IMG/VR virus record: IMGVR_UViG_3300044630_000901
Location: 1-56,971 of that record
From: a virus
Taxonomy: Duplodnaviria; Caudoviricetes
Length of the DNA stretch: 56,971 bases
Direction: 5' to 3' (one strand)
Shown here piece by piece: positions 9,940 to 31,428 of this stretch. The stretch's first letter is position 1. The number at the start of each line of letters is the position of its first letter. The translations under genes and the position numbers were made by a program. The notes beneath the pieces are model-generated. The model ran no database searches. It saw only the letters and a list, made by a program, of their open reading frames with translations, and was not told where the DNA came from.

Positions 9940-9948
9940 GGAGCTACC

Positions 9949-10281: not shown

Positions 10282-11189
10282 TGAGCGTTAGGGTTGTTTC
10301 CAACACAACCGCGAGCTCCACAACTTTTGTGCGGCTGCGTGCCGCTGTTGCGGTCGCTGAGGACCTTGCTGCAACGGTAGCTTACGCACTACCTGTGGCG
10401 CGGATAGACTACATCGACTTGTCCGTTGGTGCCGTACTGGATACGTCCGGGCGTTTTAAATTTATCACGGACAGCGTACTACTGCTTGATGCTCCGAAGT
10501 TTGACTTGGTCAAAGCTTTAGCTGAAGCGTCCACTACGCTTGACTCTACGTCCATATCAGCGCTCAAGAACTTGGCCGACGGCTTTGCCATGAACGATGG
10601 CTCTGAGGCTGTCGATGGTTCTGTGTATTCCTTCGCCAAGGGCATTTCCAACATTGCGTTCGCCAATGACGCTACGGCAACAGCGGCGCTTAAGCTGCTG
10701 CAGGATACTCAGGTATTGCAGGACTTGGTGGCCAAGGTATTGACTCGTCCGATTGCTGACGTTTCCAACACGACTGATAGCGAAACTGTTTCTGCGCTCA
10801 AAGGACTGTCCGACTCTGTCGAAATGCAGGACTCCCTAGTCACATTGCTTTTGTATTTGCGCACCTTTGCAAATAGCGTAGCAGTGGCAGACGCAGACGC
10901 TCGTGTGTATTCTCTGCCTAAAACAGAGCAGGTAGCGGTTTCGGACAACTATTTTATTGACTGGGCCAAAAGTCTGGCGCACAGCGTCACCCCAACAGAC
11001 GTTCCCGTCTTTTCCGTAGAAAAGCCCATCTCTGACGCACTTATTGCTGGTGAGGCAAAAATCTTGTCCTTTACCTCAGCTCGTGTAGAATCCGTCACAG
11101 TGCCTGATGTAGGGCTCTTGTCGGTGCAAGACTACTGTGACTTGAGCTACTTTGCTGAAGATTACGTAGGCTTATCACAATCTTTCTAG
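10281..11189 (+). CDS. Hypothetical structural protein with degenerate S/D/A/T repeats
   Basis: 302 aa with repeated 'SALKxLxD' units; tail region. Confidence 0.55.
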   Translation: MSVRVVSNTTASSTTFVRLRAAVAVAEDLAATVAYALPVARIDYIDLSVGAVLDTSGRFKFITDSVLLLDAPKFDLVKALAEASTTLDSTSISALKNLADGFAMNDGSEAVDGSVYSFAKGISNIAFANDATATAALKLLQDTQVLQDLVAKVLTRPIADVSNTTDSETVSALKGLSDSVEMQDSLVTLLLYLRTFANSVAVADADARVYSLPKTEQVAVSDNYFIDWAKSLAHSVTPTDVPVFSVEKPISDALIAGEAKILSFTSARVESVTVPDVGLLSVQDYCDLSYFAEDYVGLSQSF

Positions 11190-11199
11190 GAGTTCCACC

Positions 11200-11637
11200 A
11201 TGATCCGTGACGGTTTGAAAATTACCGGTGCAGTTGAAATCACGTTGTTCGACAAGAACGGCGACGTCAAAGACACCCGCAGCATCAAGAACTTGGTTGT
11301 CACCACCGGCAAAACTTTTATCGCTGGCCGCATGGTTGGCACCCCCGCTGTTATGAGCCACATGGCCATTGGCGAAGACAACACCGCTGCTGCTGTTGGT
11401 GACACCGCGCTGCTCGACGAAGCTGGTCGTGTCGCCTTGGCATCTGCAACTTCGACTGGTGCTGTTGTGACCTACACTGCGACCTTTGATGCCGGTACCG
11501 GCACTGGTGCTATTGTGGAAGCAGGCATCCTAAACAACTCTTCTGGCGGCACTTTGCTGTGCCGTTCGGTATTCCCCGTTGTCAACAAGGGCGCTGACGA
11601 CGGCATGTCGATCACTTGGACCGTCACGGTTTCCTAA
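11200..11637 (+). CDS. Tail-associated structural protein
   Basis: 'NLVVTTG...HMAIG...IVEAGI...TWTVTVS' resembles tail-fibre/collar N-terminal families. Confidence 0.6.
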   Translation: MIRDGLKITGAVEITLFDKNGDVKDTRSIKNLVVTTGKTFIAGRMVGTPAVMSHMAIGEDNTAAAVGDTALLDEAGRVALASATSTGAVVTYTATFDAGTGTGAIVEAGILNNSSGGTLLCRSVFPVVNKGADDGMSITWTVTVS

Positions 11638-11651
11638 TATAGGGGGCCGAC

Positions 11652-13718
11652 ATGGCTAGCATCACCACCCGCGCTGGCAAAGGCTCTCCGCTAACCAACG
11701 CGGAGGTTGATGCCAACTTTGATAACCTGAATACGGGCAAGCTGGAACTTTCTGGCGGCACGATGACAGGTGCGCTTACGCTTAACGCGAACCCTACGCA
11801 AGTGCTACACGCTGCCTCTAAGCAGTATGTTGACGGCTTGGTTGCCTCTGGCATCCACTTCCACCAACCAGTGCGTGTAGAGGCTCCTGCTAACCTGAAC
11901 GCAACATACAACAACGGCACCGCAGGTGTGGGGGCAACCCTGACAAACGCAGGCACACAGGCTGCGTTGGTTGTTGATGGCGTGACTGTAAGCGCGGCAG
12001 ATCGAGTCCTTGTCTATGAGCAGACCGACCAGACACAAAACGGCGTGTACGTCGTCACCGATGCGGGCTCGGGCTCAACCAACTGGGTTTTGACGCGCTC
12101 GGCTGACACAAATACCTACGTCATCAACAATGCCAGCGGATTAAGCGAAGGCTCGACTGTATTCGTTCAGCAAGGTACAACAGGCGCTGGCGAGACATAC
12201 ACCTGCAACACCAGTGGCACCATCACCTTTGGCACGACCAACATTTCGTTCGCCCAGATTTCTGCTGCCCAAATTTATTCTGCGGGCACTGGCCTGACAC
12301 TATCTGGCACCCAGTTTGCTGTAGCGGCTGACCAGCTGCTTCCTTCACAGTCCGGCAACGATGGTAAGTACCTGAAGACGGACGGTAGCACTACTTCGTG
12401 GGCGACGCTTACAAACCCCAACAACGGCACTCTGACGCTGGCGGTGGCAGGCACCGGCTTGTCCGGGGGAACAACCTTCACAGCTGACCAAGCAAGCAAC
12501 GCGACGTTTACTGTGACATCCGACGCTACCAGCGCCAACACAGTTGGCACCGTCGTCGCTAGAGATGGGTCTGGTAACTTCAGCGCTGGCACGATAACAG
12601 CCAACTTGACAGGAACAGCGTCTTCGGCCACAGCGCTTGCGACCGGTCGAACTGTTGCCATGACAGGGGACGTTGCGTACACGAGCGAAAGCTTTGACGG
12701 CACGGCCAACGTAACCGGCACAGCTACTTTGGCCAACACCACAGTCACGGCTGGAAGTTACACAAACGCGAGCATTACCGTAGATGCAAAAGGACGCCTC
12801 ACTGCGGCGTCAAGCGGCTCTGGCGGTGGCGTCACATCCATTGCTGGCACTGCCAACCAGATTACAGCTTCTGCATCCACCGGCGCAGTTACCCTTAGTC
12901 TGCCAGCAACCATCAACGTCAATACCAGCGGGAACGCGGCTACAGCTAGTACCGCATCTCAGGTAACAGTCAACTACAGCAACGACTCTGCCAGTACTTA
13001 CCAGATGCTGTGGGGGTCTGGCAACAGCGTGTACGGCACAGCCGGAATTTACTGCAATCCTTCTACGGATTATTTGTATGCCAACTCGATGTATTCCACT
13101 GGAGGCTGGCATCGAACTTCTGGAGCTACGGGCATATATTACGAGTCCTATGGACGGGGGATGAATCCTGCTGACGGCGCTGTTTCGTACGGCAACAACT
13201 GCGTTTACGGCAGTGGGCTAAACGGCTGGCAGGGTTGGTCGGTAAACACCAGCAACAATTGCATTTTGATGTCCAACAGCAGCACCCACGGGTTTTATAA
13301 TCCAGCTGGTGGGCTCTGGCAGGCTCAATGGGATAACTCTGGAAACGTAACTTGGAACGGCAACGTATCGGCGTATTCTGACTTGCGACTGAAAGAAAAC
13401 GTCAGGGAAATTGACGACGTTACAAAGCGCCGCGATACGCTGGCAAAAGCGGCTATCAAGTACGAGCGTGATGGGCGTACTAGAATTGGTTATGGCGCTC
13501 AAATCCTACGCGACAACGGCTGTTCTGAGTTTGTGGCGGAAGCTGATGACGCAATGAAAATTTCCACTGGCTTGGGGACTCTGTCGGTGGACTATGGTGA
13601 AACTACCTCGGTCCTTGCAGTGGCGTCCAAAATGACTGATATGCGTGTAGCTGAGCTGGAAGCTCGCGTTGCGCAACTCGAAGCATTGGTAGAAAAGGTG
13701 TTGAGTCATGGACGTTAA
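11652..13718 (+). CDS. Tail fibre with C-terminal intramolecular chaperone (peptidase S74-like)
   Basis: G/T/A-rich fibre repeats; 'YSDLRLKENVREID' autocleavage motif and terminal coiled coil. Confidence 0.85.
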   Translation: MASITTRAGKGSPLTNAEVDANFDNLNTGKLELSGGTMTGALTLNANPTQVLHAASKQYVDGLVASGIHFHQPVRVEAPANLNATYNNGTAGVGATLTNAGTQAALVVDGVTVSAADRVLVYEQTDQTQNGVYVVTDAGSGSTNWVLTRSADTNTYVINNASGLSEGSTVFVQQGTTGAGETYTCNTSGTITFGTTNISFAQISAAQIYSAGTGLTLSGTQFAVAADQLLPSQSGNDGKYLKTDGSTTSWATLTNPNNGTLTLAVAGTGLSGGTTFTADQASNATFTVTSDATSANTVGTVVARDGSGNFSAGTITANLTGTASSATALATGRTVAMTGDVAYTSESFDGTANVTGTATLANTTVTAGSYTNASITVDAKGRLTAASSGSGGGVTSIAGTANQITASASTGAVTLSLPATINVNTSGNAATASTASQVTVNYSNDSASTYQMLWGSGNSVYGTAGIYCNPSTDYLYANSMYSTGGWHRTSGATGIYYESYGRGMNPADGAVSYGNNCVYGSGLNGWQGWSVNTSNNCILMSNSSTHGFYNPAGGLWQAQWDNSGNVTWNGNVSAYSDLRLKENVREIDDVTKRRDTLAKAAIKYERDGRTRIGYGAQILRDNGCSEFVAEADDAMKISTGLGTLSVDYGETTSVLAVASKMTDMRVAELEARVAQLEALVEKVLSHGR

Positions 13719-13968
13719 AATCCTCCAGCATGATGTGCAAACTGCAAAAGCCACTATCCGCTTCACGCACGACGGCGCTGTTGTAGAGAACGAGTACGAC
13801 CTACTTTTGGTCTTACCTGACATGAAGTCAACCTTAAACAGAACCGGCAGCACGTTTGATGCAGAAATGCAAAACGCTGTGATTGCGACGCTAACAGGCT
13901 GGATGCAGCAGGCAGTCGATAGCGGCACCTTTAAAGCCCAGCGCCTGCAAAGCTTGCAAGGCATCTAA
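13708..13968 (+). CDS. Hypothetical tail-cassette protein
   Basis: 86-aa ORF overlapping the fibre stop. Confidence 0.6.
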   Translation: MDVKILQHDVQTAKATIRFTHDGAVVENEYDLLLVLPDMKSTLNRTGSTFDAEMQNAVIATLTGWMQQAVDSGTFKAQRLQSLQGI

Positions 13969-13969
13969 C

Positions 13970-14386
13970 ATGGGAACCGTCACGCAATACAACTTGGCCA
14001 ACGTGCAAGCTGCGCTTGGCGGGGGAAACCCCATATCCATGAGCGAGTATTACCGTGGTGGGCCTTATGTTCCGACAACAGGAACAACAACTGTTACAGA
14101 AGGTCCGTTATACACGCTAAACTCCTATGACTGGTACGAGTCTGGGAGCTACCTAAATATATACTGGGCCGGTACTATGGTTTACTCCTCGAGTAGTAAC
14201 TACGGCGCAACGAGTATAGCAGTTGGCTCTGTTACATATTTTAGAGGCACAGTCCAAAGAGTATTTTTTGGAACCTACAACTTCTCTGTGAGTAGGCAGT
14301 ACCCATCGACTGTTGCTATCAACACAGGGGTTCCTTCTTCAGGGAAAATTTCAATTGCACAATTGTACGGAGCAAGAAATCCATGA
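13970..14386 (+). CDS. Putative small tail-tip/adhesin protein
   Basis: 'GGGNPISMSEYYRGG..VP' and 'VPSSGKISIAQLYG' flank a Tyr/Ser-rich insert. Confidence 0.5.
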   Translation: MGTVTQYNLANVQAALGGGNPISMSEYYRGGPYVPTTGTTTVTEGPLYTLNSYDWYESGSYLNIYWAGTMVYSSSSNYGATSIAVGSVTYFRGTVQRVFFGTYNFSVSRQYPSTVAINTGVPSSGKISIAQLYGARNP

Positions 14387-14733
14387 ACATTCAACACAAA
14401 GTCGTTCAGATCGACACACACCCCGAAAAAGAAGGTCATCAGCACGTTGTGTCCGGTGTGCAGTGGCTTATGGTCGCAACCCGCAGTGGTTTTGAGTCTG
14501 TTGCGGTTGTACATTCCATTTTGCCAATTGGTGATCTTTCTCAGTTTACGCCAATTGAGCAGCTTACAAAAGAGCAACTGATCGCATGGGCTATAGCTTC
14601 TCAGGGCGGTCAGGAGTGGGTTGACAGCATGATGGCACACCACGATAGGTGTTTGGCTTTCGACGAAGCTCGTGCGGGTACAGTCCCATACACAGGCCAG
14701 CTTGCCTTTACGTTGGACACCCAACCAGAGTAA
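14383..14733 (+). CDS. Hypothetical tail-cassette protein
   Basis: 116 aa, 'FTPIEQLTKEQLIAW', ATGA-coupled. Confidence 0.6.
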   Translation: MNIQHKVVQIDTHPEKEGHQHVVSGVQWLMVATRSGFESVAVVHSILPIGDLSQFTPIEQLTKEQLIAWAIASQGGQEWVDSMMAHHDRCLAFDEARAGTVPYTGQLAFTLDTQPE

Positions 14734-14766
14734 AATCAGCCAACCCTTACCACGCCGAGTTCCGAC

Positions 14767-14991
14767 ATGGACAATCAACAGCTTTTCAACCTAGTCGTAT
14801 CCGTCGCTGGCTTTCTGGCGATCTATGTCATCAACAACCTGACCCGCACGATTCAGCGGCTGGAGGACAAGGTCAACGAGCTGCCGCACACCTACGTGGC
14901 CAAGGATGACTACCGATCTGACATCAGTGAGATCAAGTCCATGGTCAAGCAGATTTTCGACAAGCTGGACGGCAAGGCCGATAAGACATGA
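14767..14991 (+). CDS. Small membrane-anchored coiled-coil protein at the start of the lysis region
   Basis: N-terminal TM followed by a coiled coil ending 'IFDKLDGKADK'. Confidence 0.7.
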   Translation: MDNQQLFNLVVSVAGFLAIYVINNLTRTIQRLEDKVNELPHTYVAKDDYRSDISEIKSMVKQIFDKLDGKADKT

Positions 14992-15080
14992 GAGACTTCG
15001 CCGAGGCTCTTGTCGCGGCGGTTTTCATAGTCGGTATTGTCATTTGGACAGTAAAAGTAGTAGTTGAGGTACTGAGGTAA
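14988..15080 (+). CDS. 30-aa single-TM peptide (not in ORF track)
   Basis: MRDFAEALVAAVFIVGIVIWTVKVVVEVLR; ATGA and TAATG overlaps with its neighbours. Confidence 0.55.
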   Translation: MRDFAEALVAAVFIVGIVIWTVKVVVEVLR

Positions 15081-15571
15081 TGGACCCACTAACCGCGTTA
15101 GCGGCGGTAAGCGCTGCAGTCAACCTCGTCAAGAAAGCTGTCAAGACAGTCGATGACGTGCGTAGCCTCGGCCCTGTGTTGGGTAAATACTTCGATGCCA
15201 AGGCAGATGCTGTCAAGGTGCTCGAAGCGTCCAACAAAGGCGGGTTCGCTGGCTCCAACATGGGCAAGGCCGTGGAGCTGGAGCTGGCCATTGAGAACGC
15301 TCGCCAGTTCGAGGAGCAGGTCAAGCAGTTGTTCTTCCCTCACAACATGGACGTCTGGGAGAAGATCGTCAACCGCCGTGCCCAGATGGATGCGGACGAC
15401 AAGGCCCAGCGCCGCAGAGCCGCTGATGCAGCCAAGCAGGCCATCAAAAAGCGCAAGGAAGACATCGAGTTGTGGACTGCCATTACGCTGGCCACCATCG
15501 TCTTTGTGGTGCTCATGTGGATCGGCGTCGAGATCGTCTACTACTGCCGGGAGTTCAAATGTGGAAGTTGA
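15080..15571 (+). CDS. Hypothetical protein with C-terminal TM helix
   Basis: 'MDPLTALAAVSAA' start, coiled coil, hydrophobic C-terminal segment. Confidence 0.7.
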   Translation: MDPLTALAAVSAAVNLVKKAVKTVDDVRSLGPVLGKYFDAKADAVKVLEASNKGGFAGSNMGKAVELELAIENARQFEEQVKQLFFPHNMDVWEKIVNRRAQMDADDKAQRRRAADAAKQAIKKRKEDIELWTAITLATIVFVVLMWIGVEIVYYCREFKCGS

Positions 15572-15771
15572 TTTTGCCTCTTCTGTTTCTGGCTGGCTGT
15601 GAAGAGCAGTACCGGTATTTCTGCCAGAACCCTGACAACTTTCAAAAAGAGCAGTGTCAGAAGCCTCGCTGCCAGTTTACGCAGACTTGCCCTGAGTACA
15701 TGGTCGCACCCGTTTTGGAGAAACAAATTGAGCAAACCAAACCAGCTTCCGAGCCAACACCTGTCCGCTGA
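15559..15771 (+). CDS. Cys-rich lipoprotein
   Basis: MWKLILPLLFLAGC lipobox, GGAG SD, four further Cys. Confidence 0.7.
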   Translation: MWKLILPLLFLAGCEEQYRYFCQNPDNFQKEQCQKPRCQFTQTCPEYMVAPVLEKQIEQTKPASEPTPVR

Positions 15772-16243
15772 CCAGATTGAGGTCCGCATCTGGGGTTTCG
15801 TGGTCGTCATGATTACGTTGATCCTGACTTTTATTGTTGTTGCGCTGCTGTACTCGGTGACGTTCGTTACCCAGCCTATCAAGTCGATGGCCCCCATTGA
15901 CCAAGCGTATACCAAGATGCTCAACGACATCGTGCTGCTGATCGTTGGCGGTATCGGCGGCATTGTCGGCAAGCGGGCTATTGGCTCTATGGCTAATGCT
16001 GTGACGGGCGGTACGCCACCTGCTGCTCCTGCAGCCACACCTACCACGCCGCCTGCTCCGGCACCCGCTCCACAGCCTACCCCTGCTCCTTCAGTGCTGC
16101 CCAACTTCAACTGGATGGGGTTCAAGAACCCTGACCTCGACGAGTCGTGGACCCCCGGACCGCCACCCACTACACCCCCAGAGCATATGGAAGATGACGG
16201 GGAGCGCGAAGTTCTGGCCATTGCTCGCCAAGAGGTGAAGTGA
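15728..16243 (+). CDS. Two-TM membrane protein, holin candidate
   Basis: Probable TTG start after GGAG; two TM helices and a Pro-rich tail; upstream of the spanins and endolysin. Confidence 0.5.
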   Translation: MSKPNQLPSQHLSADQIEVRIWGFVVVMITLILTFIVVALLYSVTFVTQPIKSMAPIDQAYTKMLNDIVLLIVGGIGGIVGKRAIGSMANAVTGGTPPAAPAATPTTPPAPAPAPQPTPAPSVLPNFNWMGFKNPDLDESWTPGPPPTTPPEHMEDDGEREVLAIARQEVK

Positions 16244-16743
16244 TGTTCGGCATACCACTCCCGTGGGCTCTGTGCGGCGCTGCTGTTATAGCAGTCGTCA
16301 CCTACTTCACCGGGCACCACAAGGGCTGGGCCCAGCGTGACGCAGAGATGCAGGTAGAGATTGCCCGCAAGAACGAAGAGTCCCGCGCCAAAGAGCAGGA
16401 GATGGCCAAGGCTGTCACCGCTAAAGACGAAGAACTGAGAAAGGCAAACACCGATGTCGCCAAGAAACAAACTGACCTTAATCGCCTCATTGCTGCTGGC
16501 AGGGTGCGCCTCCCCACCTCCAGTTGTGTACAAGCCAGCCCAAGTGCCGCCCCTGCCACCGGAAATAGCCCAGAAGCGGGAGCCAAACCTGACGGACAGA
16601 CTGACCAAGCTACTGCTGACGAGCGAGAAACCCTCCGACTCATCGCCCAAATCGCTGCAGACGGAGACAAAGCCATCAACCAGCTCAACGCCTGCATCGA
16701 CGCCTACAACGAAGTGAGGAACACACTCAATGGTCAACGCTGA
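16240..16743 (+). CDS. Inner-membrane spanin (Rz-like)
   Basis: N-terminal TM, coiled coil, 'GRVRL', 'ADGDKAINQLNACIDAY'. Confidence 0.85.
   Translation: MMFGIPLPWALCGAAVIAVVTYFTGHHKGWAQRDAEMQVEIARKNEESRAKEQEMAKAVTAKDEELRKANTDVAKKQTDLNRLIAAGRVRLPTSSCVQASPSAAPATGNSPEAGAKPDGQTDQATADERETLRLIAQIAADGDKAINQLNACIDAYNEVRNTLNGQR
16454..16717 (+). CDS. Outer-membrane spanin (Rz1-like), embedded in Rz
   Basis: +1-frame ORF fully inside Rz with LLAGC lipobox and Pro-rich body. Confidence 0.8.
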   Translation: MSPRNKLTLIASLLLAGCASPPPVVYKPAQVPPLPPEIAQKREPNLTDRLTKLLLTSEKPSDSSPKSLQTETKPSTSSTPASTPTTK

Positions 16744-24012: not shown

Positions 24013-27000
24013 ATGTCACGCCGCCTGACCGACGAAGAAATTGCAGCGCGATACAGCCAGCAGTACCGAGTGGAAACCCCGGAAGCTGGTTTGTCGGAGT
24101 TAGGCGGCTCGGCCATAGATCGCCTGCAGGCCAAAGCTTATGGTTTGGTCGAGCCCTTGGGGCTCTCGCGTGACTACCGTCTGGCTCAAGAAGCTGAAGC
24201 TGAGCGCACATCCAATCGCTACTACGACACCAATCAGGGTGCCGTTGGCTCCTACAAAAACATCTCAGGCGTCGGTGACGTTGGTCGCTACGCAGCCGAG
24301 TTGGGGGTTCAGTCGCTCCCTGAAATTGTGCCTGTCGTTGGCGCTGGCCTTGTGGGCGGACCAGTCGCTGCTTTTGGTGTCGCAGGTCTCAGCGGTATTG
24401 GCGAAGTCATGCAGGCTCAACGCGAGCAAAGTGGTCGCACTGATTTGACGGCCATCCCTCTCGGCTTGGCCTATGGTGGCGTTGAAGCTGCCACTGGTAT
24501 CGTCGGCAAGCTGGCTGGTACTGGTATTCGCGCAGAACGTGCTGCGGCTGTTGCCAACCGTTACTTGGACAACCTAGGTGGCTTCACTGGCGGCGCAGCT
24601 CGCACAGGGGCTGCTGCTGGTCGCACTGGCTTCTCTGAGGCTGTTGGTGAAGTGGGTCAGGAGTACATCTCCAATGTAGGCCGTCTGGCTATCGACCCAC
24701 GCGTTGACCTGTTCAGCCCCGAAGCATTGAATGACTATGCTGAGTCTTTTGTTGGTGGTGGTCTGCTGGGCGGTCTGCTTGGTGGTGCTGCCGGTGGCTG
24801 GCGTCGCAGTCAGGGTTTCCGTGATTCCACTCGTGAGCGAGACCTGACCTCTTCCATGGCCGAACAAGAGCCAGAACTTCAGCGCCCACTGGATAGCCAG
24901 TTTGTTACCCAAGACCAGACTCTCGGCCTGCAGTCGTTCATCAACCAGAACGTGGGCGTAACTCGCCCCAAGCGCCGTGACTACGCAGCCCAGTTCAAGG
25001 CTGCATACGATGAGCCTACCGGCCAGTTCGTCAACGACCCAGAAACCGGCATTGAGCGCCCCCTGACAGTGGGCGAAGCCCTGCAGCGCTCGCAGGCTCC
25101 ACTGGACATGACGCAGGAAAAACCTGCTGATGCAGCAGCTACTGCTCAAGTGGTTGCCAACACAGTGCGCGACCCACGCTCGTACGAGCTGCGCGATACG
25201 TTTGGCGTCATCCCCACCCCATCTTCTTTGCAACTGTACTCAGACATTCAGGCTTCTGGTTTGCCAGTAGATTCCGATATGCTGGTAGGTGTGTGGGCGT
25301 ACGCCGGTGAAAAGCCGATGACACCCAAGCGTCTGGAAAAAGCGCAGCAGTTGCTGGATGCTGCCATCATTGAAGCTCGCAAGGAGGCACCAAGTGGCAC
25401 AGGAATTTCTACTGTACAGCAGCCTGCAGGAAGCGTGGGAGTCGGGAGCCCTGTCGTTCAAGGAGGTCTGGGAGATGCAGGACGCCCTGCTCCTGTCGCA
25501 GGAGCAGTGGTCGGAGGTGCCCCAGCAGCTGGAGCCCCACTTCAACAAGCTGGCGTTCTTCCAATCACTGCCGGAGAACCGGCTACCCCTGTAACTACGA
25601 CTGCCCCTGCAGCCGCCCCCGCGCCGGAGACTCGTTTCCGTCGTGCCCCTAGACCAATGACAGTTTTGGAAGCCGCAAATGCCGCTAAAGCCGCTCAAGC
25701 CCAGCAAACAGAAACGCAAGGACAAACGGCACCTGCCGCCGCAGGACCAGTCGTAGACGAACGCCAAGCCGTTCTGCAGCAAATCTTTGGCACCCGCGAC
25801 GGTGACATCATTTTTGACGTGGTGGGTATGGGCATGTCCGAGCCAGAAGCTGCTGCCAAGTATGGTCTGGCTCGTCAGACTATTCAAAAGATTGCTGGTG
25901 CTACCGGTGCCGAGCAGCGTGCCGCGAAGATTCAGCGTGCCAAGGCTCAAAAAGGCATTACTGACGAGCAGATCGCTACAGCGTTTCAGGTTGCCCCGCA
26001 GGAAGAACTAGGCTCCGAGGTAGAGCGCGACATTTTTGGCGCTGGTGCCGCTCAAGGTGCCATCACAGAAGGCGAGGCCATTGAAGCTGGCCTTGAGAAC
26101 ATTGTCAAGACTGCCGGGGCTGGAACCTCAGAGGTTGAAGGCTTTACCAAGCTGGACAAAGCTGTAATGACTGTGTTGGAGCGAATCGCTAGCTTGCGAG
26201 ATGCCGTGTCCAAAGCCAAGAGCGAAGCAGAACTGACGGGGCTAAAAACCAAGCTACAAGAGGCACAAGACAATTTGGCTGGCTTGACTGAAAAAGTCAA
26301 ATCCGTTGAGAAAAAAGCTCAGGGTGAAGTGCGTCGCACTGCTGGCAAAGTAACCGAACCAACTGTTGAAGGAGAAGCTGATGCCGTTCAAGTCGAAAGC
26401 CCAGCAGGGGTATCTGTTCAGCCAGAAGCCGGAACTGGCGAAAAAGTGGGCCGACAAGTACGGGGTGCCAAAAAGCCTGCCGCAGAAGGTAAAGCCCAAG
26501 TCCCAGCCAAAGTCCTCACCGAAGCCGAGCAAGCCGCCCAAGCGTGGGATGTAGTCGTTGCTGACTATCCACAGGCTCCCAAGTTTGCTGAACTGACAAA
26601 GGCTCAGCAGCAGGACTTCATTGAGTTTGGCCCCGGCAACTGGGAGCGCGGTGACGTTGAGCTTGAGCTGACCAAGTTGGCCAAGGCTGGCATGAAGTTT
26701 GGTACTGAAGCAGCACCAGCACAAGACCGCGAGCCCTACACAGCCAAACAATTGCTGGCTGAGCTCAAAGCGTTTATTCGTGCTGACATTCCTAAGCGCA
26801 AGCTGATGGTTGTGGGTAGCGTGGCTGACTTGCTGACGTCTCCAGACGCAAAAATCCGAGCTGTTGGTGCCGCGTTGCAGCTGCAAGGGGCATACGGCGT
26901 GGCCGTAGATGGTCGTGCGTTCTTGATTGCAAACCGAATCAAGCAAGGTTCTGGTCGGGCCAAGTTCATGCACGAAGTTGGTGGCCACTTGGGTCTGGAC

Positions 27001-30000
27001 AATTTGCTCACTAAGGCAGATCAGGACAAGCTGGTCAACCAGATCAAATCTTGGGCCAAGAAAGCTGACGGCTCTTTGGAAGCTGAACTGGCACTGCAAG
27101 CCTTCGAGCGTGTTGTAGCTGCCCAGACTCCTAAAGAAGACCAGCGCTCAGAACTGATTGCGTATTTCATTGAGTCGGCCATGGAGATGGGTGTTGACCC
27201 AACTGCCGCTACCGATACCAAGCTGTCCGGCCCTCTGCGCGAATGGTTCCGTACGTTGTGGGCTGCATTTAAGGTGGCTGCTCGCAAGCTGGGCATTAAG
27301 CCAGAGTCCATGACAGCACAAGACGTTGTCAACTTGGCTTACGGCGCTGCTCGTTTGGAGATCAACGGCACATGGCACGGCACTGCTGCTGCGTTCCGTA
27401 ACTTCCGCAACAAATACATCGGCTCTGGTGAGGGTGCAACCGCTTATGGCTGGGGTACTTACTTGGCCCAGCGTGTTGGTATTGCCAAGGGATACTGGTC
27501 TGCTGACGTTGACAGAAAGACTGCCAATCCAACAGCTACGTACGACGGTCGCCCACTTAAAGACATTGATAGCGAGATCGGAGTCAAAGAGCAGTTCGGT
27601 CTTGACCTAAATGAAGAAGAGCAGGCGCTCAGACTTATCCTTCCAATCCTTAATGCGAATCTGGATAATGGCGACAATGATGCGCTGCGGTCTGCCAACA
27701 TGACAATTGCCAAACGCGGGTCTGGGGCGCTGACTGGGAAACTATACAAACCAGCCTCAGACTGGCTGGACAAGAACTATTCCAAGTTCAAAGTAGTGCC
27801 CGGCAAACAGCCAGAAGGCAACTTGATGCGTGTTGACACTGCCGTGGACGACGACCGTGTGTTTAACTACGACACGTTGGTCATTAAGCAGCCAAACTAT
27901 GTGGCCGACAAGCTCATGGAGCTGCTTGACCCTGTTGCTGACGAGATTCTGGATCGCACCAACAAAGACGTTGAAGAGCTGACTGGCAGAGACCTGATCG
28001 GCACTGGCGAGAACGACCTTGGGTTGCTCAGCAACCTCATCATGGATGACGCCATTTCTTTGCCAGCTGGCCAAGACAAGCAGTTCGATGAAGCTGTACG
28101 CCAAGGTAAATTCCACGAAGCGGCCAGCCACTTCTTGCGTGCATCTGGCATTCAAGGCATTAAGTTTTACGACGCCCGTAGTAGAGGCTCTGCTTCCACA
28201 GCAATCTCATTTGACGGTAAGACTTATAACCGGGACGAGCTGCGCGACAAATCACGTGAGGCTAGCCAAGCAAACGACGCCGCCAAGACAATGAAGTTTC
28301 TGATGCTGCGCGATATTCTGCGCAACGGCGTGGACGATGTGATGGCAAGCCTAGAGGAAAAAGTCTCTAAACAGGCCGACAGCTATGAGCAAATTTACCT
28401 TGATTCAGCTGCACGGTACAACGTTAAAGTAAACCCTGCCGAAGAGCGAGCACGTGCTGAAAAAGAAGCCAATGAGGATTTTGCTGGCCAACAGCTGGCA
28501 TGGCTCAAAGCCAATAAGAAACTCATCTCCATTGAGCAACTGCCAAAGCTGCGTAACTTAATCATCTTTGATGACAAGGACATCTTCCGTGTGGGTGGAG
28601 AAGCTGCTGCTGATCGCCAGCGCATGAAGTTTGGTAAGAACGCCCCGACGAAAGGGCTGATCGACCGCAACATTGCCAAGCTGCCAAAGCAGTCCCAACA
28701 GCCAGTCAAGCGCGTGGCTGAAGCTCTTGGTGATCTTGGCGGCAAGTACCTTGACTACGCCGTCTTTACAAACGATCTGGTCAAGCGTGCTCAGGCTCTG
28801 GGTCTGGGCGCTGCCAAGACTTTCTCCGACCGCCTTGCTGCACGCAACGCCAAGGTCAGTGAGGAAGAGCGCAAGATCGAAAAGATCGCTGATGGCTACG
28901 CTCTGATCGAGGACGCCAACAAAGGCTCCGGCCCCGGCTCGGTCAACGAGTTCTTGTTTGAGTCCACCCGCACAGGTAAGTGGGGCTATGGCAAGTACCG
29001 CGATGCCAAGATGGGTGCTGCGTTCGATGCGTTGGGCCCCAAGGCTCAGCAGTTCGTCAAAGACGTGTTTGCCCATGGCGATGCCATGCTGTCCAACAAG
29101 AAGCGCATTGTGCTGAACGCCACCAACTCTGAGTACGACGCCATGATTAAGGCAGCTCAGGACGATGGCGACACCCAGACAGAAGCTAAGCTCAAGGCCG
29201 AGAAAGCCGCTACGCTCAAGCGCTTCCAGACACTGTTCCGCATCCGTGAGGGTGTGCCCTACGCGCCAATCAAGCGTACTGGTGCCTATGTGGTGATCGG
29301 TGAGTCTGATGCGTACAAAGCTGCCAAGGCCAAGAACGACACAGCGACCGTCAAGAAGCTGGAGTCTGACCCAGACCACTACCATGTGTCGTTCGTGGAC
29401 ACCAAACTGCAAGCCCGTAACCTGAGCGACAAGCTGTCCGATCAGGGTGTGTTTGTTGAGCCGCAGATTGTCAAGCGCTCGGAGTCCTTTGACGAGGCTT
29501 TCAGTGGTGAGGCCATGCTGCCTGCCCTGACCAAGATGCGTGCCGCTGTGGACCGTCGTGCCCAAGACGCCAACGGCAAGAAAGACCCATCCGCTGGCAA
29601 GCTGCTGAACATCATCAACCAGTTGTACTTGGAGGCGTTGGCTGAGGGTAGTGCCCGCAAGTCTGAAATGCGTCGCCGTGGTGTGGCCGGTGAAGTGGAC
29701 ATGCTCCAGTCGTTTACCCAGCAAGGCCGTGCCGATGCCAACTTCTTGGCCAGCGTTGAGTATGAGCCGAAGATTCAGGATGCCTTGCAGCAGATGCGTA
29801 ACCAGTCCCGCACTGGCGACCGTGAGCGCAAGTCCGAAATCTTTGATGAGCTGACCCAGCGTTACGCTGACTCGTTGGAGCCAAAGAACAATCCGTTCAT
29901 CAACGGCCTGACCAACATGGCATCCAAGTTCTTCTTGGCTTCCAGCCCCGGCTACTACCTGCAGAACTTGACTCAGCCATTCATGATGTCCCTGCCTGCC

Positions 30001-31428
30001 ATGGCTGGTCGTCACGACTACACCAAAGCCGCTGCTGAGCTGGCCAAGGCGTACACCGAGCTGGGCCCACTGTTCAAAGACGTGAAGCTGTTCGACCAGC
30101 AGTTTGACTTCTCCAAGGTTCCAGCAGACGTGCGTGCCGCTATCAACGACTTGGTCAACCAAGGCAAGATCGACATTGGTCTGGCCACTGAGATCAACGA
30201 GTACAAGGTAGACGCCGATGGAAAACTCAGCCAGTTTGCACAGCGCCTGAACAAAGGCATGCGTATGGCCGTCCAGAAAGTGGAAGCTACCAACCGCTTG
30301 TCTACGGCCATTGCTGCGTACCGCTTGGAGTTTGAGCGGGCCAAGAACGACCCAAAGATTGCAGACCCTAAAGCTGCAGCCACGCAGTACGCTGCTGACA
30401 TTCTGACTGACACCCATGGTGACTACACCGCCTTCAACGCTCCTCGTGCGTTTAACACCCAGTGGGGCAAGGTGGCTTTGCAGTTCCGCAAGTTCCAGTT
30501 GATTCAGATCGCGTTCTATGCCAAGTTGTTCCGCGACTTAGGGCGGACACCCGAAGAGCGTGCTGTGGCAATGAAGACTCTGGCCTACTCGCTGAGCCAC
30601 ACTGCTGTGTTCGCTGGCATGATGGGCTTGCCCGGCTACGCTGCCATCTCTGCTATCTTGGGCTTCTTCGGTGACGAGGATGAGCCATACGACCTGACTG
30701 CTGAGATGCGCAAGGCGCTTGGCCCAGAGTGGGCTGACATGATTATGCGCGGAGCCCCCACCGTTGTTGGTATGGACTTGTCCGGCAAGATTGGCTCCGG
30801 CAACATGCTGTCCATCATGCCGTTTAGCGACGCTGACTTGACTACCACTTCAGGCCAAGCGGAAGCTGTCGGTACGTTCTTCGGTGGCGCTGCATTGGGT
30901 ATGACATCGCGTGTTGCCGACGGCCTGCTGCTCATGCTCAAAGGCGACTACTACAAGGGCCTCGAGCGCGTTATGCCAAAGGGCGTGTCTGACGCCCTCA
31001 AGGCTGGCCGACAAGGTGCCGAAGGTATGACCCGCCGCAACGGTGATGTGATCTTGCCTGACAACGATATTGGTGCAATCGACACAGTGCTGACTGCATT
31101 GGGTGTGCCAGCCGTGAAGCAGGCTGTTACCTACGAGCGTCAAAACCGTATGAACGACATCACCAAGAACTTCAGCGACCGCACCACGCGCATCAAGAAC
31201 GACTACGCCAAGGCTGTCCGTGAAAAAGACACTGAAGGCATGGCCGAAGCCCGAACTGCATGGACAAAACTGCAGCAGGCACGCCAACGTAACGGCCTCA
31301 AACCTCAGCCAGTGTCAACACTGCTGAAAGCCCCGCAGGAGCAGAAGGCTCGGGAGCAGCGCACCGTGGGCGGTGTGGCGTACCGCGAAGGCCAGAAGAA
31401 ACTGGCAGAATCAGTGGCTGAGAATTAA
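24013..31428 (+). CDS. Giant internal virion 'polyvalent' protein (metallopeptidase-like, ADP-ribosyltransferase-like and PLxRFG-like domains)
   Basis: 2471 aa; Gly-rich hydrophobic N-terminus, 'FMHEVGGHLG', 'WHGT...IGSGEG..AYGWGTY...GIQGIKFYD...NLIIFDD', 'YAPIKRTGAYVV'. Confidence 0.75.
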   Translation: MSRRLTDEEIAARYSQQYRVETPEAGLSELGGSAIDRLQAKAYGLVEPLGLSRDYRLAQEAEAERTSNRYYDTNQGAVGSYKNISGVGDVGRYAAELGVQSLPEIVPVVGAGLVGGPVAAFGVAGLSGIGEVMQAQREQSGRTDLTAIPLGLAYGGVEAATGIVGKLAGTGIRAERAAAVANRYLDNLGGFTGGAARTGAAAGRTGFSEAVGEVGQEYISNVGRLAIDPRVDLFSPEALNDYAESFVGGGLLGGLLGGAAGGWRRSQGFRDSTRERDLTSSMAEQEPELQRPLDSQFVTQDQTLGLQSFINQNVGVTRPKRRDYAAQFKAAYDEPTGQFVNDPETGIERPLTVGEALQRSQAPLDMTQEKPADAAATAQVVANTVRDPRSYELRDTFGVIPTPSSLQLYSDIQASGLPVDSDMLVGVWAYAGEKPMTPKRLEKAQQLLDAAIIEARKEAPSGTGISTVQQPAGSVGVGSPVVQGGLGDAGRPAPVAGAVVGGAPAAGAPLQQAGVLPITAGEPATPVTTTAPAAAPAPETRFRRAPRPMTVLEAANAAKAAQAQQTETQGQTAPAAAGPVVDERQAVLQQIFGTRDGDIIFDVVGMGMSEPEAAAKYGLARQTIQKIAGATGAEQRAAKIQRAKAQKGITDEQIATAFQVAPQEELGSEVERDIFGAGAAQGAITEGEAIEAGLENIVKTAGAGTSEVEGFTKLDKAVMTVLERIASLRDAVSKAKSEAELTGLKTKLQEAQDNLAGLTEKVKSVEKKAQGEVRRTAGKVTEPTVEGEADAVQVESPAGVSVQPEAGTGEKVGRQVRGAKKPAAEGKAQVPAKVLTEAEQAAQAWDVVVADYPQAPKFAELTKAQQQDFIEFGPGNWERGDVELELTKLAKAGMKFGTEAAPAQDREPYTAKQLLAELKAFIRADIPKRKLMVVGSVADLLTSPDAKIRAVGAALQLQGAYGVAVDGRAFLIANRIKQGSGRAKFMHEVGGHLGLDNLLTKADQDKLVNQIKSWAKKADGSLEAELALQAFERVVAAQTPKEDQRSELIAYFIESAMEMGVDPTAATDTKLSGPLREWFRTLWAAFKVAARKLGIKPESMTAQDVVNLAYGAARLEINGTWHGTAAAFRNFRNKYIGSGEGATAYGWGTYLAQRVGIAKGYWSADVDRKTANPTATYDGRPLKDIDSEIGVKEQFGLDLNEEEQALRLILPILNANLDNGDNDALRSANMTIAKRGSGALTGKLYKPASDWLDKNYSKFKVVPGKQPEGNLMRVDTAVDDDRVFNYDTLVIKQPNYVADKLMELLDPVADEILDRTNKDVEELTGRDLIGTGENDLGLLSNLIMDDAISLPAGQDKQFDEAVRQGKFHEAASHFLRASGIQGIKFYDARSRGSASTAISFDGKTYNRDELRDKSREASQANDAAKTMKFLMLRDILRNGVDDVMASLEEKVSKQADSYEQIYLDSAARYNVKVNPAEERARAEKEANEDFAGQQLAWLKANKKLISIEQLPKLRNLIIFDDKDIFRVGGEAAADRQRMKFGKNAPTKGLIDRNIAKLPKQSQQPVKRVAEALGDLGGKYLDYAVFTNDLVKRAQALGLGAAKTFSDRLAARNAKVSEEERKIEKIADGYALIEDANKGSGPGSVNEFLFESTRTGKWGYGKYRDAKMGAAFDALGPKAQQFVKDVFAHGDAMLSNKKRIVLNATNSEYDAMIKAAQDDGDTQTEAKLKAEKAATLKRFQTLFRIREGVPYAPIKRTGAYVVIGESDAYKAAKAKNDTATVKKLESDPDHYHVSFVDTKLQARNLSDKLSDQGVFVEPQIVKRSESFDEAFSGEAMLPALTKMRAAVDRRAQDANGKKDPSAGKLLNIINQLYLEALAEGSARKSEMRRRGVAGEVDMLQSFTQQGRADANFLASVEYEPKIQDALQQMRNQSRTGDRERKSEIFDELTQRYADSLEPKNNPFINGLTNMASKFFLASSPGYYLQNLTQPFMMSLPAMAGRHDYTKAAAELAKAYTELGPLFKDVKLFDQQFDFSKVPADVRAAINDLVNQGKIDIGLATEINEYKVDADGKLSQFAQRLNKGMRMAVQKVEATNRLSTAIAAYRLEFERAKNDPKIADPKAAATQYAADILTDTHGDYTAFNAPRAFNTQWGKVALQFRKFQLIQIAFYAKLFRDLGRTPEERAVAMKTLAYSLSHTAVFAGMMGLPGYAAISAILGFFGDEDEPYDLTAEMRKALGPEWADMIMRGAPTVVGMDLSGKIGSGNMLSIMPFSDADLTTTSGQAEAVGTFFGGAALGMTSRVADGLLLMLKGDYYKGLERVMPKGVSDALKAGRQGAEGMTRRNGDVILPDNDIGAIDTVLTALGVPAVKQAVTYERQNRMNDITKNFSDRTTRIKNDYAKAVREKDTEGMAEARTAWTKLQQARQRNGLKPQPVSTLLKAPQEQKAREQRTVGGVAYREGQKKLAESVAEN
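25394..25594 (+). CDS. Overprinted gene (+1 frame) inside the giant gene; 66-aa acidic protein
   Basis: AAGGAGG (25381-25387), 6 nt, GTG start; the host frame turns into low-complexity G/A/P/V sequence here. Confidence 0.6.
   Translation: MAQEFLLYSSLQEAWESGALSFKEVWEMQDALLLSQEQWSEVPQQLEPHFNKLAFFQSLPENRLPL
26381..26554 (+). CDS. Overprinted gene (+1 frame) inside the giant gene; 57-aa basic protein MPFKSKAQ...
   Basis: AAGGAG SD, 6 nt, ATG; MPFKSKAQQGYLFSQKPELAKKW resembles small phage proteins I recall as stand-alone genes. Confidence 0.7.
   Translation: MPFKSKAQQGYLFSQKPELAKKWADKYGVPKSLPQKVKPKSQPKSSPKPSKPPKRGM

What the first reader, a model, noticed from the sequence alone, without database searches (positions are those of the whole stretch)
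26369..26554. Hidden gene 2: MPFKSKAQ-type basic protein nested in the giant gene
Seen: AAGGAG, 6 nt, ATG opens a 57-aa +1-frame ORF, MPFKSKAQQGYLFSQKPELAKKWADKYGVPKSLPQKV...; the main frame reads 'GEADAVQVESPAGVSVQPEAGTGEKVG'. From memory (not searched), MPFKSKAQ... peptides occur as stand-alone small phage genes, and 'DA(I/V)Q...V.VQPE' linkers recur in giant phage proteins. Inference: those linkers are the shadow of a widespread, unannotated nested gene. With hidden gene 1, this giant gene would act as a nested operon, the best candidate here for an undescribed system.
Basis: partly seen in the sequence, partly recalled or inferred. Interest (0 to 1): 0.85.

Follow-up and report, generated by a model that had tools for sequence, protein, structure and literature searches.

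The report
Hidden small gene inside giant phage gene
A 57-residue, very basic protein gene lies in a shifted reading frame inside a giant phage virion-protein gene; the same small gene stands alone in many other phages and evolves like a real gene here, so it is probably a functional embedded gene that annotation misses.

Summary
AAGGAG (26369-26374), a 6-nt spacer and ATG 26381 open a 57-codon ORF (26381-26554) in the +1 frame of a 2471-aa ORF (24013-31428), the last gene of the virion module.

ORF length alone is unremarkable: 4 of 34 ATG-started alternative-frame ORFs in that gene reach 57 aa. Homology and the substitution pattern carry the case.
- The peptide belongs to a large viral family of small proteins that start MPFKS: 4445 cluster representatives at E<=1e-3.
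- Among 80 related viral contigs, 30 copies are embedded, always in this relative frame. Nineteen sit in giant ORFs and 11 in a ~405-aa gene between portal and capsid. Another 47 are free-standing (16 ambiguous) and 3 are N-terminal fusions.
- In embedded copies, 46-56% of codon differences are synonymous in the peptide frame (47% in free copies). Only 3-13% are synonymous in the host frame.
- Host third-position variation falls from 0.54 to 0.07 per site.
- The host "DA[VI]Q..V[PS]VQ.E" linker is therefore the peptide's shadow.
- A second embedded gene (25394-25594) gives the same signal.

Translation and function are untested. My best guess is a head-associated basic protein. Embedded phage genes are a known kind; this family and its arrangement appear undescribed.

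The parts
26369..26374 (+). Shine-Dalgarno-like AAGGAG, 6 nt before the embedded ATG
   Evidence: In host cluster A, 9 of 9 copies have an SD match of >=4 nt in -17..-5, against 23.6% of 898 other ATGs in the same host genes. The host residues encoded there differ between copies (EGE, LEK, VGE).
26381..26554 (+). Embedded gene ('hidden gene 2'): 57 codons plus TAG, +1 frame relative to the host ORF
   Evidence: It is the only copy in this 98%-complete virus record. Homologues.
26381..26485 (+). Conserved N-terminal domain of the peptide (aa 1-35), predicted as two helices (6-15, 17-27)
   Evidence: Invariant M1 P2 F3 S5 Q8 A20 in 93 sequences. AF2 pLDDT is 83-93 over aa 1-30. Differences per site at host codon positions 1/2/3 are 0.246/0.091/0.069, against 0.337/0.278/0.543 in the rest of the gene.
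26486..26551 (+). Lys/Pro/Ser-rich basic tail of the peptide (aa 36-57), predicted without regular structure
   Evidence: The tail varies in length and sequence across the family. It shows no codon-phase preference (0.39/0.34/0.34). The host frame (LTEAEQAAQAWDVV) becomes conserved here.
24013..31428 (+). Host gene: 2471-aa giant virion protein, last gene of the structural block
   Evidence: Its C-terminal residues 1855-2466 match phrog_10089 'DarB-like antirestriction' at E=1.5e-57. That region is ~27% identical to the giant 'PLxRFG/DarB-like' proteins of ~60-kb phages such as Erwinia PEp14. Upstream genes match internal virion protein families.
25381..25387 (+). Shine-Dalgarno AAGGAGG of the second embedded gene
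   Evidence: a 6-nt spacer leads to GTG 25394.
25394..25594 (+). Second embedded gene ('hidden gene 1'): 66 codons, GTG start, +1 frame, acidic product (pI 4.3)
   Evidence: This is the only other stretch of the host gene with the codon-phase switch. The +1-frame peptide and its stop are conserved in L006, L007, L008 and L011. tblastn matches the +1-frame peptide in all 7 close relatives (L005-L009, L011, L086), and in no other locus. Eleven called homologues of 66-91 aa begin at the same V/L/M-AQEF.

Best explanation
ORF 26381-26554 is a functional protein-coding gene embedded out of frame (+1) in the giant virion-protein gene.

Shown by computation:
- It belongs to a large, almost purely viral family of small proteins. 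Each has an invariant MPFKS..Q N-terminus, a ~30-residue two-helix hairpin and a variable Lys-rich tail.
- The family occurs in three arrangements: free-standing, embedded, or fused to the N-terminus of a larger protein.
- In embedded copies purifying selection acts on the peptide frame. The host frame only has to stay open, and its linker motif is a by-product of the peptide's codons.

Inferred:
- The peptide is made by internal initiation at its own SD and ATG on the late structural mRNA, independently of the giant protein.
- The embedded state probably arose when a neighbouring ORF extended over an older small gene. That makes the small gene the older partner, the reverse of classical overprinting.

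Function (inferred, about 0.35): the family sits next to portal, MuF-like, scaffold-position and giant internal-protein genes. I therefore read it as a head-associated, probably packaged, small basic protein. The hairpin would dock on a head or cargo component, and the tail would bind DNA or act as a linker. It would work together with the gene that hosts it.
For: Homology
- 26 called small proteins all start MPFKS/MPFQS, except P0016, which carries a 30-residue leader before it.
- A profile of 93 members finds 4445 cluster representatives at E<=1e-3 and 915 at E<=1e-10 among 1.84 billion. In the listed 150 the domain nearly always starts at residue 1.
- PHROG phrog_1375 matches at E=6.3e-4.

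Arrangement
- Of 80 viral loci, 30 are embedded, 47 free (16 of them with an open -1 frame, hence ambiguous) and 3 fused.
- All 30 embedded copies lie in the same relative frame.
- The hosts fall into 5 BLASTP clusters.
- 3 of 21 bacterial or MAG contigs are also embedded.
- 68 cultured Flavobacterium phage records match. One was inspected: a 42-aa ORF lies inside a 3694-aa CDS.

Selection
- Stops in the host frame across the peptide ORF: 0 in 31 of 31 embedded copies, a mean of 2.83 in 48 free copies.
- Codon F3 is TTC in 30 of 30 distinct embedded copies (TTT would give a host TAA). It is TTC in 26 of 45 free copies.
- Synonymous share of codon differences in the peptide frame: 0.46, 0.47 and 0.56 in the three embedded groups, 0.47 in free copies. 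In the host frame: 0.03, 0.08 and 0.13, against 0.05 for the non-coding -1 frame of free copies.
- In a 5-genome codon alignment, host third-position differences drop from 0.543 to 0.069 per site and the maximum moves to host position 1, which is peptide position 3.
- A scan of 1965 ungapped codons places all ten top pos1/pos3 windows at this site or at hidden gene 1.

Initiation
- An SD of >=4 nt is present in 9 of 9 cluster-A copies against a 23.6% background.

Natural un-embedded control
- In L033 and L063 a giant gene 39% identical over 1200 aa to an embedding host (L043) lacks the nest. The peptide gene sits 9 and 7 nt after its stop.

Sole copy in this genome.

Context
- L021: portal (phrog_6547), then the 400-aa host, then a capsid-position protein.
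- L019: the peptide lies upstream of a 274-aa ORF and the major head protein.
- L035: a MuF-like gene, then a 926-aa MPFKS fusion, then the major head protein.

Fold: helices 6-15 and 17-27, mean pLDDT 78.9.
Against: - No tool here shows that the peptide is translated or present in virions.
- The SD signal is absent in the low-GC groups: 0 of 11 copies in the ~405-aa hosts and 3 of 9 in cluster B, which is not above background. From general knowledge such hosts often do not use SD.
- The 80 viral loci are the best of at least 363 confirmed relatives, ranked by likeness to this window's peptide. The embedded share is therefore not a population estimate.
- Sequences within a group are related, so pairwise counts are not independent events.
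- The peptide tree has 44 columns and only 4 well-supported branches. It needs at least 4 changes between embedded and not embedded, yet cannot exclude a single origin of embedding.
- Function is unsupported by any direct test. There is no Pfam family and no Foldseek match at E<=1e-3. The non-MPFKS parts of 10 fusion proteins are uninformative.
- Cultured phages whose giant genes are related to this host (PEp14, Skulduggery and others) gave no hit to the peptide. Such giants therefore do not universally need it.
Confidence: 0.82

Rival explanations
1. Dead relic. A small gene was swallowed when two neighbouring ORFs fused. Its frame merely has not yet decayed, and only the giant protein is made.
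For: The ORF length alone is not unusual (4 of 34 alternative-frame ORFs are >=57 aa). There is no expression evidence. The low-GC groups lack an SD.
Against: The ORF is intact, with ATG and 39-66 codons, in all 31 embedded copies across 5 host clusters. The synonymous share of differences in the peptide frame (0.46-0.56) equals that of free-standing genes (0.47). Host synonymous sites are about 8-fold suppressed. It is the only copy in a 98%-complete genome.
Confidence: 0.05
2. Frameshift product. The MPFKS frame is joined to the host frame by programmed ribosomal frameshifting. One route starts at the embedded ATG and slips -1 in the Lys-rich tail, giving an MPFKS-headed C-terminal giant fragment that mimics the natural N-terminal fusions. 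The other route has host ribosomes slipping +1 and terminating in the peptide frame.
For: Natural N-terminal fusions exist: L035 (926 aa), L057, L083 and L093, plus roughly 50 of the 150 best profile hits at 106-531 aa. Two of these fusions carry HExxH motifs (P0175, P0125), and the window's giant has HEVGGH about 160 aa after the nest.
Against: Canonical X_XXY_YYZ heptamers in the peptide frame occur in only 5 of 31 embedded copies. They are at non-conserved positions, there are none in the window, and they are rarer than in free copies (15 of 48). The embedded peptides keep their own stop and the same length range as free copies. The invariant M1-P2-F3 and the upstream SD argue for initiation at the ATG, not entry from the host frame.
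Confidence: 0.05
3. The constraint comes from a nucleic-acid element in the giant gene (RNA structure, packaging or regulatory site), not from a second protein.
For: Suppressed synonymous variation is also what an RNA or DNA element would give.
Against: Residual variation is concentrated at peptide codon position 3 and is synonymous in that frame. The same protein sequence is conserved in free-standing genes with very different nucleotide sequences and GC content. Rfam gave no match at E<=1 in 25200-26800.
Confidence: 0.02
4. Assembly or reading artefact. The giant ORF is really two genes with a free-standing peptide gene between them, joined by a sequencing frameshift.
For: Free-standing copies next to giant genes do exist (L033, L063).
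Against: The host frame is open across the nest in 30 independent viral contigs, in 3 contigs from bacterial or MAG assemblies (L086, L099, L101) and in the one cultured-phage record inspected. Codon choice specifically avoids host-frame stops (TTC 30 of 30). Complete host ORFs of 2301-3807 aa span both sides.
Confidence: 0.02
5. Rival for function only. The peptide is not a virion component. It is an early-acting or membrane-active basic amphipathic peptide, or a host-takeover factor, that merely shares the late operon.
For: Invariance of the N-terminal residues across phages with very different capsid and portal families suggests a partner that is conserved across hosts, such as DNA, membrane or a host factor. 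No structural or family match constrains the function.
Against: Wherever neighbours could be named, the gene sits in the head or virion module and is fused to, embedded in or directly follows virion-module genes.
Confidence: 0.25

Closest known systems
Lambda Rz/Rz1 two-component spanin genes (Rz1 embedded in the +1 frame of Rz)
   Same: A complete small gene lies out of frame, on the same strand, inside a larger phage gene. The same pair of genes occurs embedded in some phages and separated in others, which indicates functional coupling of the two products. The Rz1 frame and the embedded/overlapped/separated architecture classes are recalled. I saw only the search listing and abstract starts of PMC6139136 and PMC5295617.
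   Different: There is no sequence or functional relation. The peptide has no lipoprotein signal and sits in the head/virion module, not the lysis cassette. Hosts are giant virion proteins or a scaffold-position gene. A third, fused, architecture is common. Interaction of the two products is not shown.
PHROG family phrog_1375 (unknown function)
   Same: The peptide's residues 3-26 match profile positions 17-40 of 70 at E=6.3e-4. Seven of 10 N-terminal fusion proteins match the same profile positions at E between 4.9e-8 and 7.2e-4.
   Different: The match is partial and weak. The PHROG has no function and, as a cluster of called proteins, says nothing about embedded copies.
Pfam DUF3008 (PF11450), small basic proteins of bacteria and viruses
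   Same: A nearest Pfam-bearing ESM-Atlas cluster (score 0.81, 15% of members with DUF3008) is a lead only. The resemblance of motifs is recalled, not tested.
   Different: No hmmscan match at E<=1 for the peptide or any of 26 family members. No match of PF11450 anywhere in the window at E<=10. It is not a member by these tests.
Classical overprinting in small viruses (for example phiX174 genes E in D and B in A)
   Same: Two proteins are read from one stretch of DNA in different frames, with reduced synonymous variation. This is general knowledge; the review PMC8227390 was seen as a listing and abstract start only.
   Different: Here the embedded gene is the older, widely conserved partner, because it exists free-standing in thousands of clusters. 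The host frame across it is the younger, unconstrained reading. That is the reverse of a new gene born inside an old one.
Giant 'PLxRFG / DarB-like' polyvalent virion proteins (host gene)
   Same: The C-terminal ~600 aa match phrog_10089 at E=1.5e-57. They are ~27% identical to the giant proteins of PEp14, Skulduggery, SopranoGao, PBC5 and others.
   Different: Those cultured phages gave no hit to the peptide. In the polyvalent-protein paper (PMC5512222) a term search of the main text for embedded, reading frame, frameshift, PLxRFG, linker and small basic found 2 passages. Neither concerns out-of-frame genes.

Membership tests
MPFKS small basic phage protein family (defined here, alignment A2; overlaps phrog_1375) | N-terminus M-P-F-K-S-x-x-Q at residue 1, with invariant P17/A20/K21 and an L-P pair near residue 33 | tested here: met
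   The window peptide carries all of them. The profile search places the match at residues 1-4x of almost all of the 150 best hits.
MPFKS small basic phage protein family (defined here, alignment A2; overlaps phrog_1375) | Short protein (about 35-95 aa) with a two-helix N-domain followed by a variable Lys-rich tail | tested here: met
   57 aa with 14 K. AF2 predicts helices 6-15 and 17-27 and no regular structure after residue 27.
phrog_1375 | HMM match at E<=1e-3 | tested here: met
   E=6.3e-4, 21.1 bits, covering only 24 of the 70 profile positions.
Pfam DUF3008 (PF11450) | HMM match over the curated cut-off (24 bits) | tested here: not met
   No match at E<=1. No match in the whole window at E<=10.
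Embedded (out-of-frame, same-strand) phage gene, Rz1-in-Rz kind | The complete ORF with its own start and stop lies inside a longer ORF in another frame of the same strand | tested here: met
   26381-26554 lies inside 24013-31428, in frame +1.
Embedded (out-of-frame, same-strand) phage gene, Rz1-in-Rz kind | Purifying selection on the embedded frame | tested here: met
Embedded (out-of-frame, same-strand) phage gene, Rz1-in-Rz kind | Own translation-initiation signal | tested here: met
   AAGGAG plus a 6-nt spacer. 9 of 9 in cluster A against a 23.6% background. Not met in the low-GC groups (0 of 11 and 3 of 9).
Embedded (out-of-frame, same-strand) phage gene, Rz1-in-Rz kind | The embedded product is actually translated | not testable with these tools
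   This needs ribosome profiling or mass spectrometry.
DarB-like / PLxRFG giant virion protein (host gene) | Match to the family's C-terminal region | tested here: met
   phrog_10089 at E=1.5e-57 over residues 1855-2466. tblastn gives ~27% identity over >=83% of the query in each of the 25 listed of 33 records.
DarB-like / PLxRFG giant virion protein (host gene) | Antirestriction activity or helicase/methylase domains of P1 DarB | tested here: not met
   Pfam finds no helicase or methylase domain in the 2471-aa protein at E<=1. The activity itself was not tested.

The most novel reading that the evidence does not exclude
The MPFKS peptide is an ancient, near-universal head-module protein of tailed phages. 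Neighbouring genes for capsid-internal cargo (giant ejection/polyvalent proteins, scaffold-position proteins) have repeatedly engulfed it, fused to it or captured it. On this reading the hairpin is a portable capsid- or cargo-docking handle and the Lys-rich tail binds packaged DNA. Embedding would then be a way to lock the synthesis of the handle to that of its cargo. The recognisable host-frame shadow DA[VI]Q..V[PS]VQ.E would become a sequence signature for finding hidden genes in giant phage proteins. In this phage an acidic 66-aa second embedded gene would be its partner or chaperone.
Probability: 0.25. Interest if true: 0.8.

Novelty: new variant of a known kind. Interest (0 to 1): 0.66.

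Why it matters
- Annotation: gene callers forbid embedded genes. A conserved protein family is therefore invisible in the embedded copies found here, including the one cultured Flavobacterium phage record I opened (68 such records match). Even free-standing copies are unannotated in two GenBank phages.
- Evolution: the older gene is the embedded one. The linker of the giant protein is an unconstrained read-through of it. This is a clear natural case of gene engulfment rather than overprinting. It also explains a recurrent 'linker motif' in giant phage proteins as a coding shadow.
- Biology: the family's three arrangements tie it to giant packaged proteins and to the scaffold position. Free copies can follow the portal or a giant gene, embedded copies sit in giant or scaffold-position genes, and fused copies head larger proteins. 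That gives a concrete handle on how such cargo is brought into or organised in capsids.
- Method: the codon-phase scan found both embedded genes and nothing else in 1965 ungapped codon columns. It is a cheap screen for more such cases.

Tried and rejected
- Megablast of the giant gene against 50,697 phage records gave no match.
- tblastn of the L021 peptide against the phage records gave no match at E<=1.
- The search for homologous proteins with lengths 'longer' scored none of 4 candidates. The tool itself calls this weak evidence. Fusions were later found by the profile search.
- Pfam on the peptide, on 26 family members, on hosts and on 10 fusion proteins gave nothing informative. The only hits were DUF5661 in P0130 and GGDEF_2 in P0156.
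- PHROGs found no family for the 402-aa host, for the L035 and L083 fusions or for the L054 host.
- Foldseek of the AF2 model against the PDB gave no match at E<=1e-3. The ten weak rows are short helical fragments.
- Complex prediction with the window's portal protein (693 aa, no alignment) and the peptide (alignment A2) returned 'no answer', with scores 0.00 and 0.00. This is not evidence either way.
- The -1 frameshift idea was rejected.
- An RNA-element explanation found no Rfam match.
- DUF3008 membership was not met.
- The peptide tree was too short (44 columns) to count origins of embedding.
- Literature: 'MPFKS' anywhere in the text found 7 papers. Six were listed, five of them with unrelated titles. 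In the one phage paper the hit is a C-terminal coincidence in a predicted Acr candidate (PMC12919940, passage read).
- Searches on overlapping or embedded genes with internal virion protein, polyvalent protein and synonymous constraint, and on the elemoviruses, listed nothing that describes this family or its arrangement.
- I considered Papyrus gp8 (between portal and a MuF-like gene) as a member. The match is weak (E=0.6) and it lacks the MPFKS start, so it remains a lead only.
Full report
**What is there**

The window is a virus record of 56,971 bases, estimated 98% complete. It carries terminase, portal (3846-5927), major head protein (7319-8320), fibre-like proteins and internal virion proteins. 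A 2471-aa ORF (24013-31428) closes the rightward structural block. The C-terminal ~600 residues of that ORF match phrog_10089 'DarB-like antirestriction' at E=1.5e-57. They are ~27% identical to the giant 'PLxRFG/DarB-like' proteins of ~60-kb phages such as Erwinia PEp14 and Pseudomonas Skulduggery.

- AAGGAG lies at 26369-26374, followed by six bases and ATG at 26381.
- The ATG opens a 57-codon ORF that ends with TAG at 26552-26554, in the +1 frame.
- The product is MPFKSKAQQGYLFSQKPELAKKWADKYGVPKSLPQKVKPKSQPKSSPKPSKPPKRGM, with pI 10.5, 14 Lys and 1 Arg.
- An ORF of this length is not unusual in itself. The giant gene holds 34 ATG-started alternative-frame ORFs, and 4 of them have at least 57 codons.

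**A real protein family**

- A word-based search found 26 called proteins of 43-94 aa. All start MPFKS or MPFQS, except one with a 30-residue leader, and each has a variable Lys-rich tail.
- A profile of 93 members scored 4445 cluster representatives at E<=1e-3 and 915 at E<=1e-10 in 1.84 billion. Among the 150 best, the match begins at residue 1 in nearly all. Most are 48-100 aa, and roughly 50 are 106-531 aa with the domain at the N-terminus.
- The family overlaps phrog_1375, of unknown function.
- It has no Pfam family. DUF3008, which an ESM-Atlas lead and my memory suggested, is not matched.
- Atlas neighbours are all viral. Only 21 loci turned up in 185,579 species genomes, 19 of them MAG or other uncultured-bin contigs.
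- AlphaFold2 with the 93-row alignment gives two helices (6-15, 17-27) and an unstructured tail, with mean pLDDT 78.9. Foldseek finds nothing at E<=1e-3.

**Three arrangements**

I classified the 80 best viral loci, taken from at least 363 confirmed relatives. The classification used.
- 30 copies lie wholly inside a longer same-strand ORF.
- 47 are free-standing. In 16 of these the -1 frame is also open, so they are ambiguous.
- 3 head a larger protein (L035 with 926 aa, L057 and L083).
- Every embedded copy has the same relative frame as in the window.

The hosts fall into five BLASTP clusters:
- Cluster A holds the window and 8 relatives.
- Cluster B holds 9 low-GC giants of 975-3807 aa.
- L047 and L054 stand alone. 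L047 shares phrog_11358 with the window's protein.
- The last cluster is 11 copies of a ~405-aa gene, with the nest at codons ~50-100.

In giant hosts the nest lies 475-1148 codons from the N-terminal end of the host open frame as held; the 475 is in L055, whose host is cut at its 5' end. The ~405-aa host sits between a portal (phrog_6547, E=1.5e-152) and a capsid-position structural protein.

Three more embedded copies occur in MAG contigs (L086, L099, L101). In addition, 68 records of cultured Flavobacterium elemoviruses match. In the one record I opened, a 42-aa MPFKS ORF sits inside an annotated 3694-aa 'structural protein' and is not annotated.

Free copies lie in the head module:
- In L019 the peptide lies upstream of a 274-aa ORF and the major head protein.
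- In L035 the order is MuF-like gene, then MPFKS fusion, then a 148-aa ORF, then major head protein.

In Synechococcus phage S-CBS2 and Phage C75C1, free 36- and 34-aa copies lie in unannotated gaps.

**Which frame is under selection**

Five independent measures agree.

1. Stops in the host frame. It has no stop across the peptide ORF in 31 of 31 embedded copies. In 48 free copies the same frame has 2.83 stops on average.
2. Codon choice. Codon F3 is TTC in 30 of 30 distinct embedded copies, because TTT followed by AAR would create a host TAA. Among free copies 19 of 45 use TTT. The host 'DA[VI]Q' is simply nAT-GCC-[GA]TT-CAA read one base early. All 28 distinct host readings have A at position 2 and Q at position 4.
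3. Synonymous share of codon differences within groups:

| Group | Peptide frame | Host (-1) frame |
|---|---|---|
| Cluster A (embedded) | 0.46 | 0.03 |
| Cluster B (embedded) | 0.47 | 0.08 |
| ~405-aa group (embedded) | 0.56 | 0.13 |
| Free copies | 0.47 | 0.05 (non-coding frame) |

4. Codon phase. In a codon alignment of five complete host genes, differences per site at host positions 1/2/3 are 0.337/0.278/0.543 over 1908 columns outside the nest. Over peptide residues 1-35 they are 0.246/0.091/0.069. Divergence collapses, and its maximum moves to the third position of the peptide frame.
5. Sliding scan. A 30-codon scan of 1965 ungapped columns puts all ten highest pos1/pos3 ratios at two places only: residues 790-796 (this nest) and 463-470.

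Over the peptide's tail the phase signal fades (0.39/0.34/0.34). There the host motif LTEAEQAAQAWDVV becomes conserved.

**Initiation**

In cluster A, 9 of 9 copies have an SD match of >=4 nt at -17..-5, against 23.6% of 898 other ATGs in the same genes. The host residues encoded there differ between copies. The low-GC groups show no SD: 0 of 11 and 3 of 9, with a background of 24-34%. From general knowledge, many such hosts initiate without SD.

**Coupling to the host gene**

L033 and L063 carry a giant gene that is 39% identical over 1200 residues to the embedding host of L043. It lacks the nest, and the peptide gene follows its stop after 9 and 7 bases. The same pair of genes thus exists both embedded and separated.

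The embedded copy is the only copy in this genome. Each listed elemovirus record shows a single matching place.

**Most likely mechanism**

Shown by computation: this is an intact, selected member of a widespread protein family, read in the +1 frame of the giant gene.

Inferred:
- The ~6.4-kDa peptide is made by internal initiation on the late structural mRNA.
- The embedding arose by extension or fusion of neighbouring ORFs over a pre-existing small gene, so the linker of the giant protein is the younger reading.
- Function, at about 0.35: a head-associated, probably packaged, basic protein that acts with capsid-internal cargo.

**Rivals**

- A decaying relic is contradicted by the selection data.
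- Programmed frameshifting is contradicted by the rarity and non-conservation of slippery heptamers: 5 of 31 embedded copies, none in the window, against 15 of 48 free copies.
- An RNA element is contradicted by the codon-phase pattern and by an empty Rfam search.
- An assembly artefact is contradicted by the number of independent contigs.

**The second embedded gene**

The other phase-switch region is a +1-frame ORF with AAGGAGG (25381-25387), six bases and GTG 25394, running 66 codons to 25594. Its product is acidic, with pI 4.3.
- Its peptide and stop are conserved in L006, L007, L008 and L011.
- tblastn matches the peptide in all 7 close relatives (L005-L009, L011, L086) and in no other locus.
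- Eleven called homologues (71-91% identical, all on contigs of at most 2457 bases) begin at the same V/L/M-AQEF.
- No free-standing context could be shown.

So the giant gene does carry two embedded genes. Whether the three products work together is open.

**Comparison and novelty**

Embedded out-of-frame genes are known in phages. Lambda Rz1 in Rz is the closest architectural analogue, including its separated forms in other phages. That comparison is recalled; I saw only listings and abstract starts of the relevant papers.

New here are the family, its hosts, the fused third state and the direction of events, with an old gene engulfed by a younger reading. My searches found no description:
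- the motif search;
- the topic searches;
- a term search of the main text of the polyvalent-protein paper PMC5512222.

**Limits**

- There is no evidence of translation or virion presence.
- The loci are the best-scoring subset, so the shares of each arrangement are not population estimates.
- Pairwise counts use related sequences.
- The 44-column tree cannot count origins of embedding.
- Only one elemovirus record was inspected.

Noticed in passing
window 25381-25594 (+): A second embedded +1-frame gene lies in the same giant ORF: AAGGAGG, 6 nt, then GTG 25394, 66 codons, acidic product (pI 4.3). It shows the same codon-phase switch as the MPFKS nest. It is conserved in 7 close relatives only, and 11 called homologues sit on short contigs. 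An acidic and a basic peptide inside one gene could be partners.
   Followed up: partly
L001 3001-3111 (Synechococcus phage S-CBS2, GU936714.1) and L002 3001-3105 (Phage C75C1, OQ984151.1): Free-standing MPFKS genes of 36 and 34 aa lie in gaps between annotated CDSs. They are not annotated in the GenBank records.
   Followed up: yes
L064 7973-8350 (+), also L059-L061 and L067: In a high-GC group, a 125-aa ORF with an HTH-like C-terminal half starts at an ATG 28 nt upstream of the peptide's ATG. It contains the whole 41-aa peptide ORF in the same relative frame. This may be a third, small class of host, or the downstream gene may use another start. A 43-aa basic ORF ends at the peptide's ATG.
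   Followed up: partly
window ~27040-27060 (giant protein motif HEVGGH, about 160 aa after the nest); proteins P0175 and P0125: The giant protein has an HExxxH-like motif (FMHEVGGHLGL) shortly after the nest. Two natural N-terminal MPFKS fusion proteins carry HEFGHG and HELGHA motifs. No family match was obtained.
   Followed up: no
L085 host CDS 5340-16424 (Flavobacterium phage elemoC_14-1A): The host-frame string EDAVQKQ occurs twice in the 3694-aa protein. One occurrence is at the embedded gene and one is about 150 residues upstream, where I did not translate the +1 frame. The upstream copy may be a remnant of a duplicated nest.
   Followed up: no
L033 72-7991 and L063 1-4206: Giant genes are mosaic. 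The L033 giant shares only its C-terminal ~1200 aa with the L043 host, and the N-terminal ~1400 aa are unrelated by BLASTP. The part that carries the nest is therefore an exchangeable module.
   Followed up: partly
L003 2977-3138 (Mycobacterium phage Papyrus gp8): A 53-aa basic protein lies directly after the portal gene and before a MuF-like gene. It shows a weak match (E=0.6) to residues 3-26 of the peptide but has an Arg/Lys-rich leader instead of the MPFKS start. It may be a distant branch of the family.
   Followed up: no
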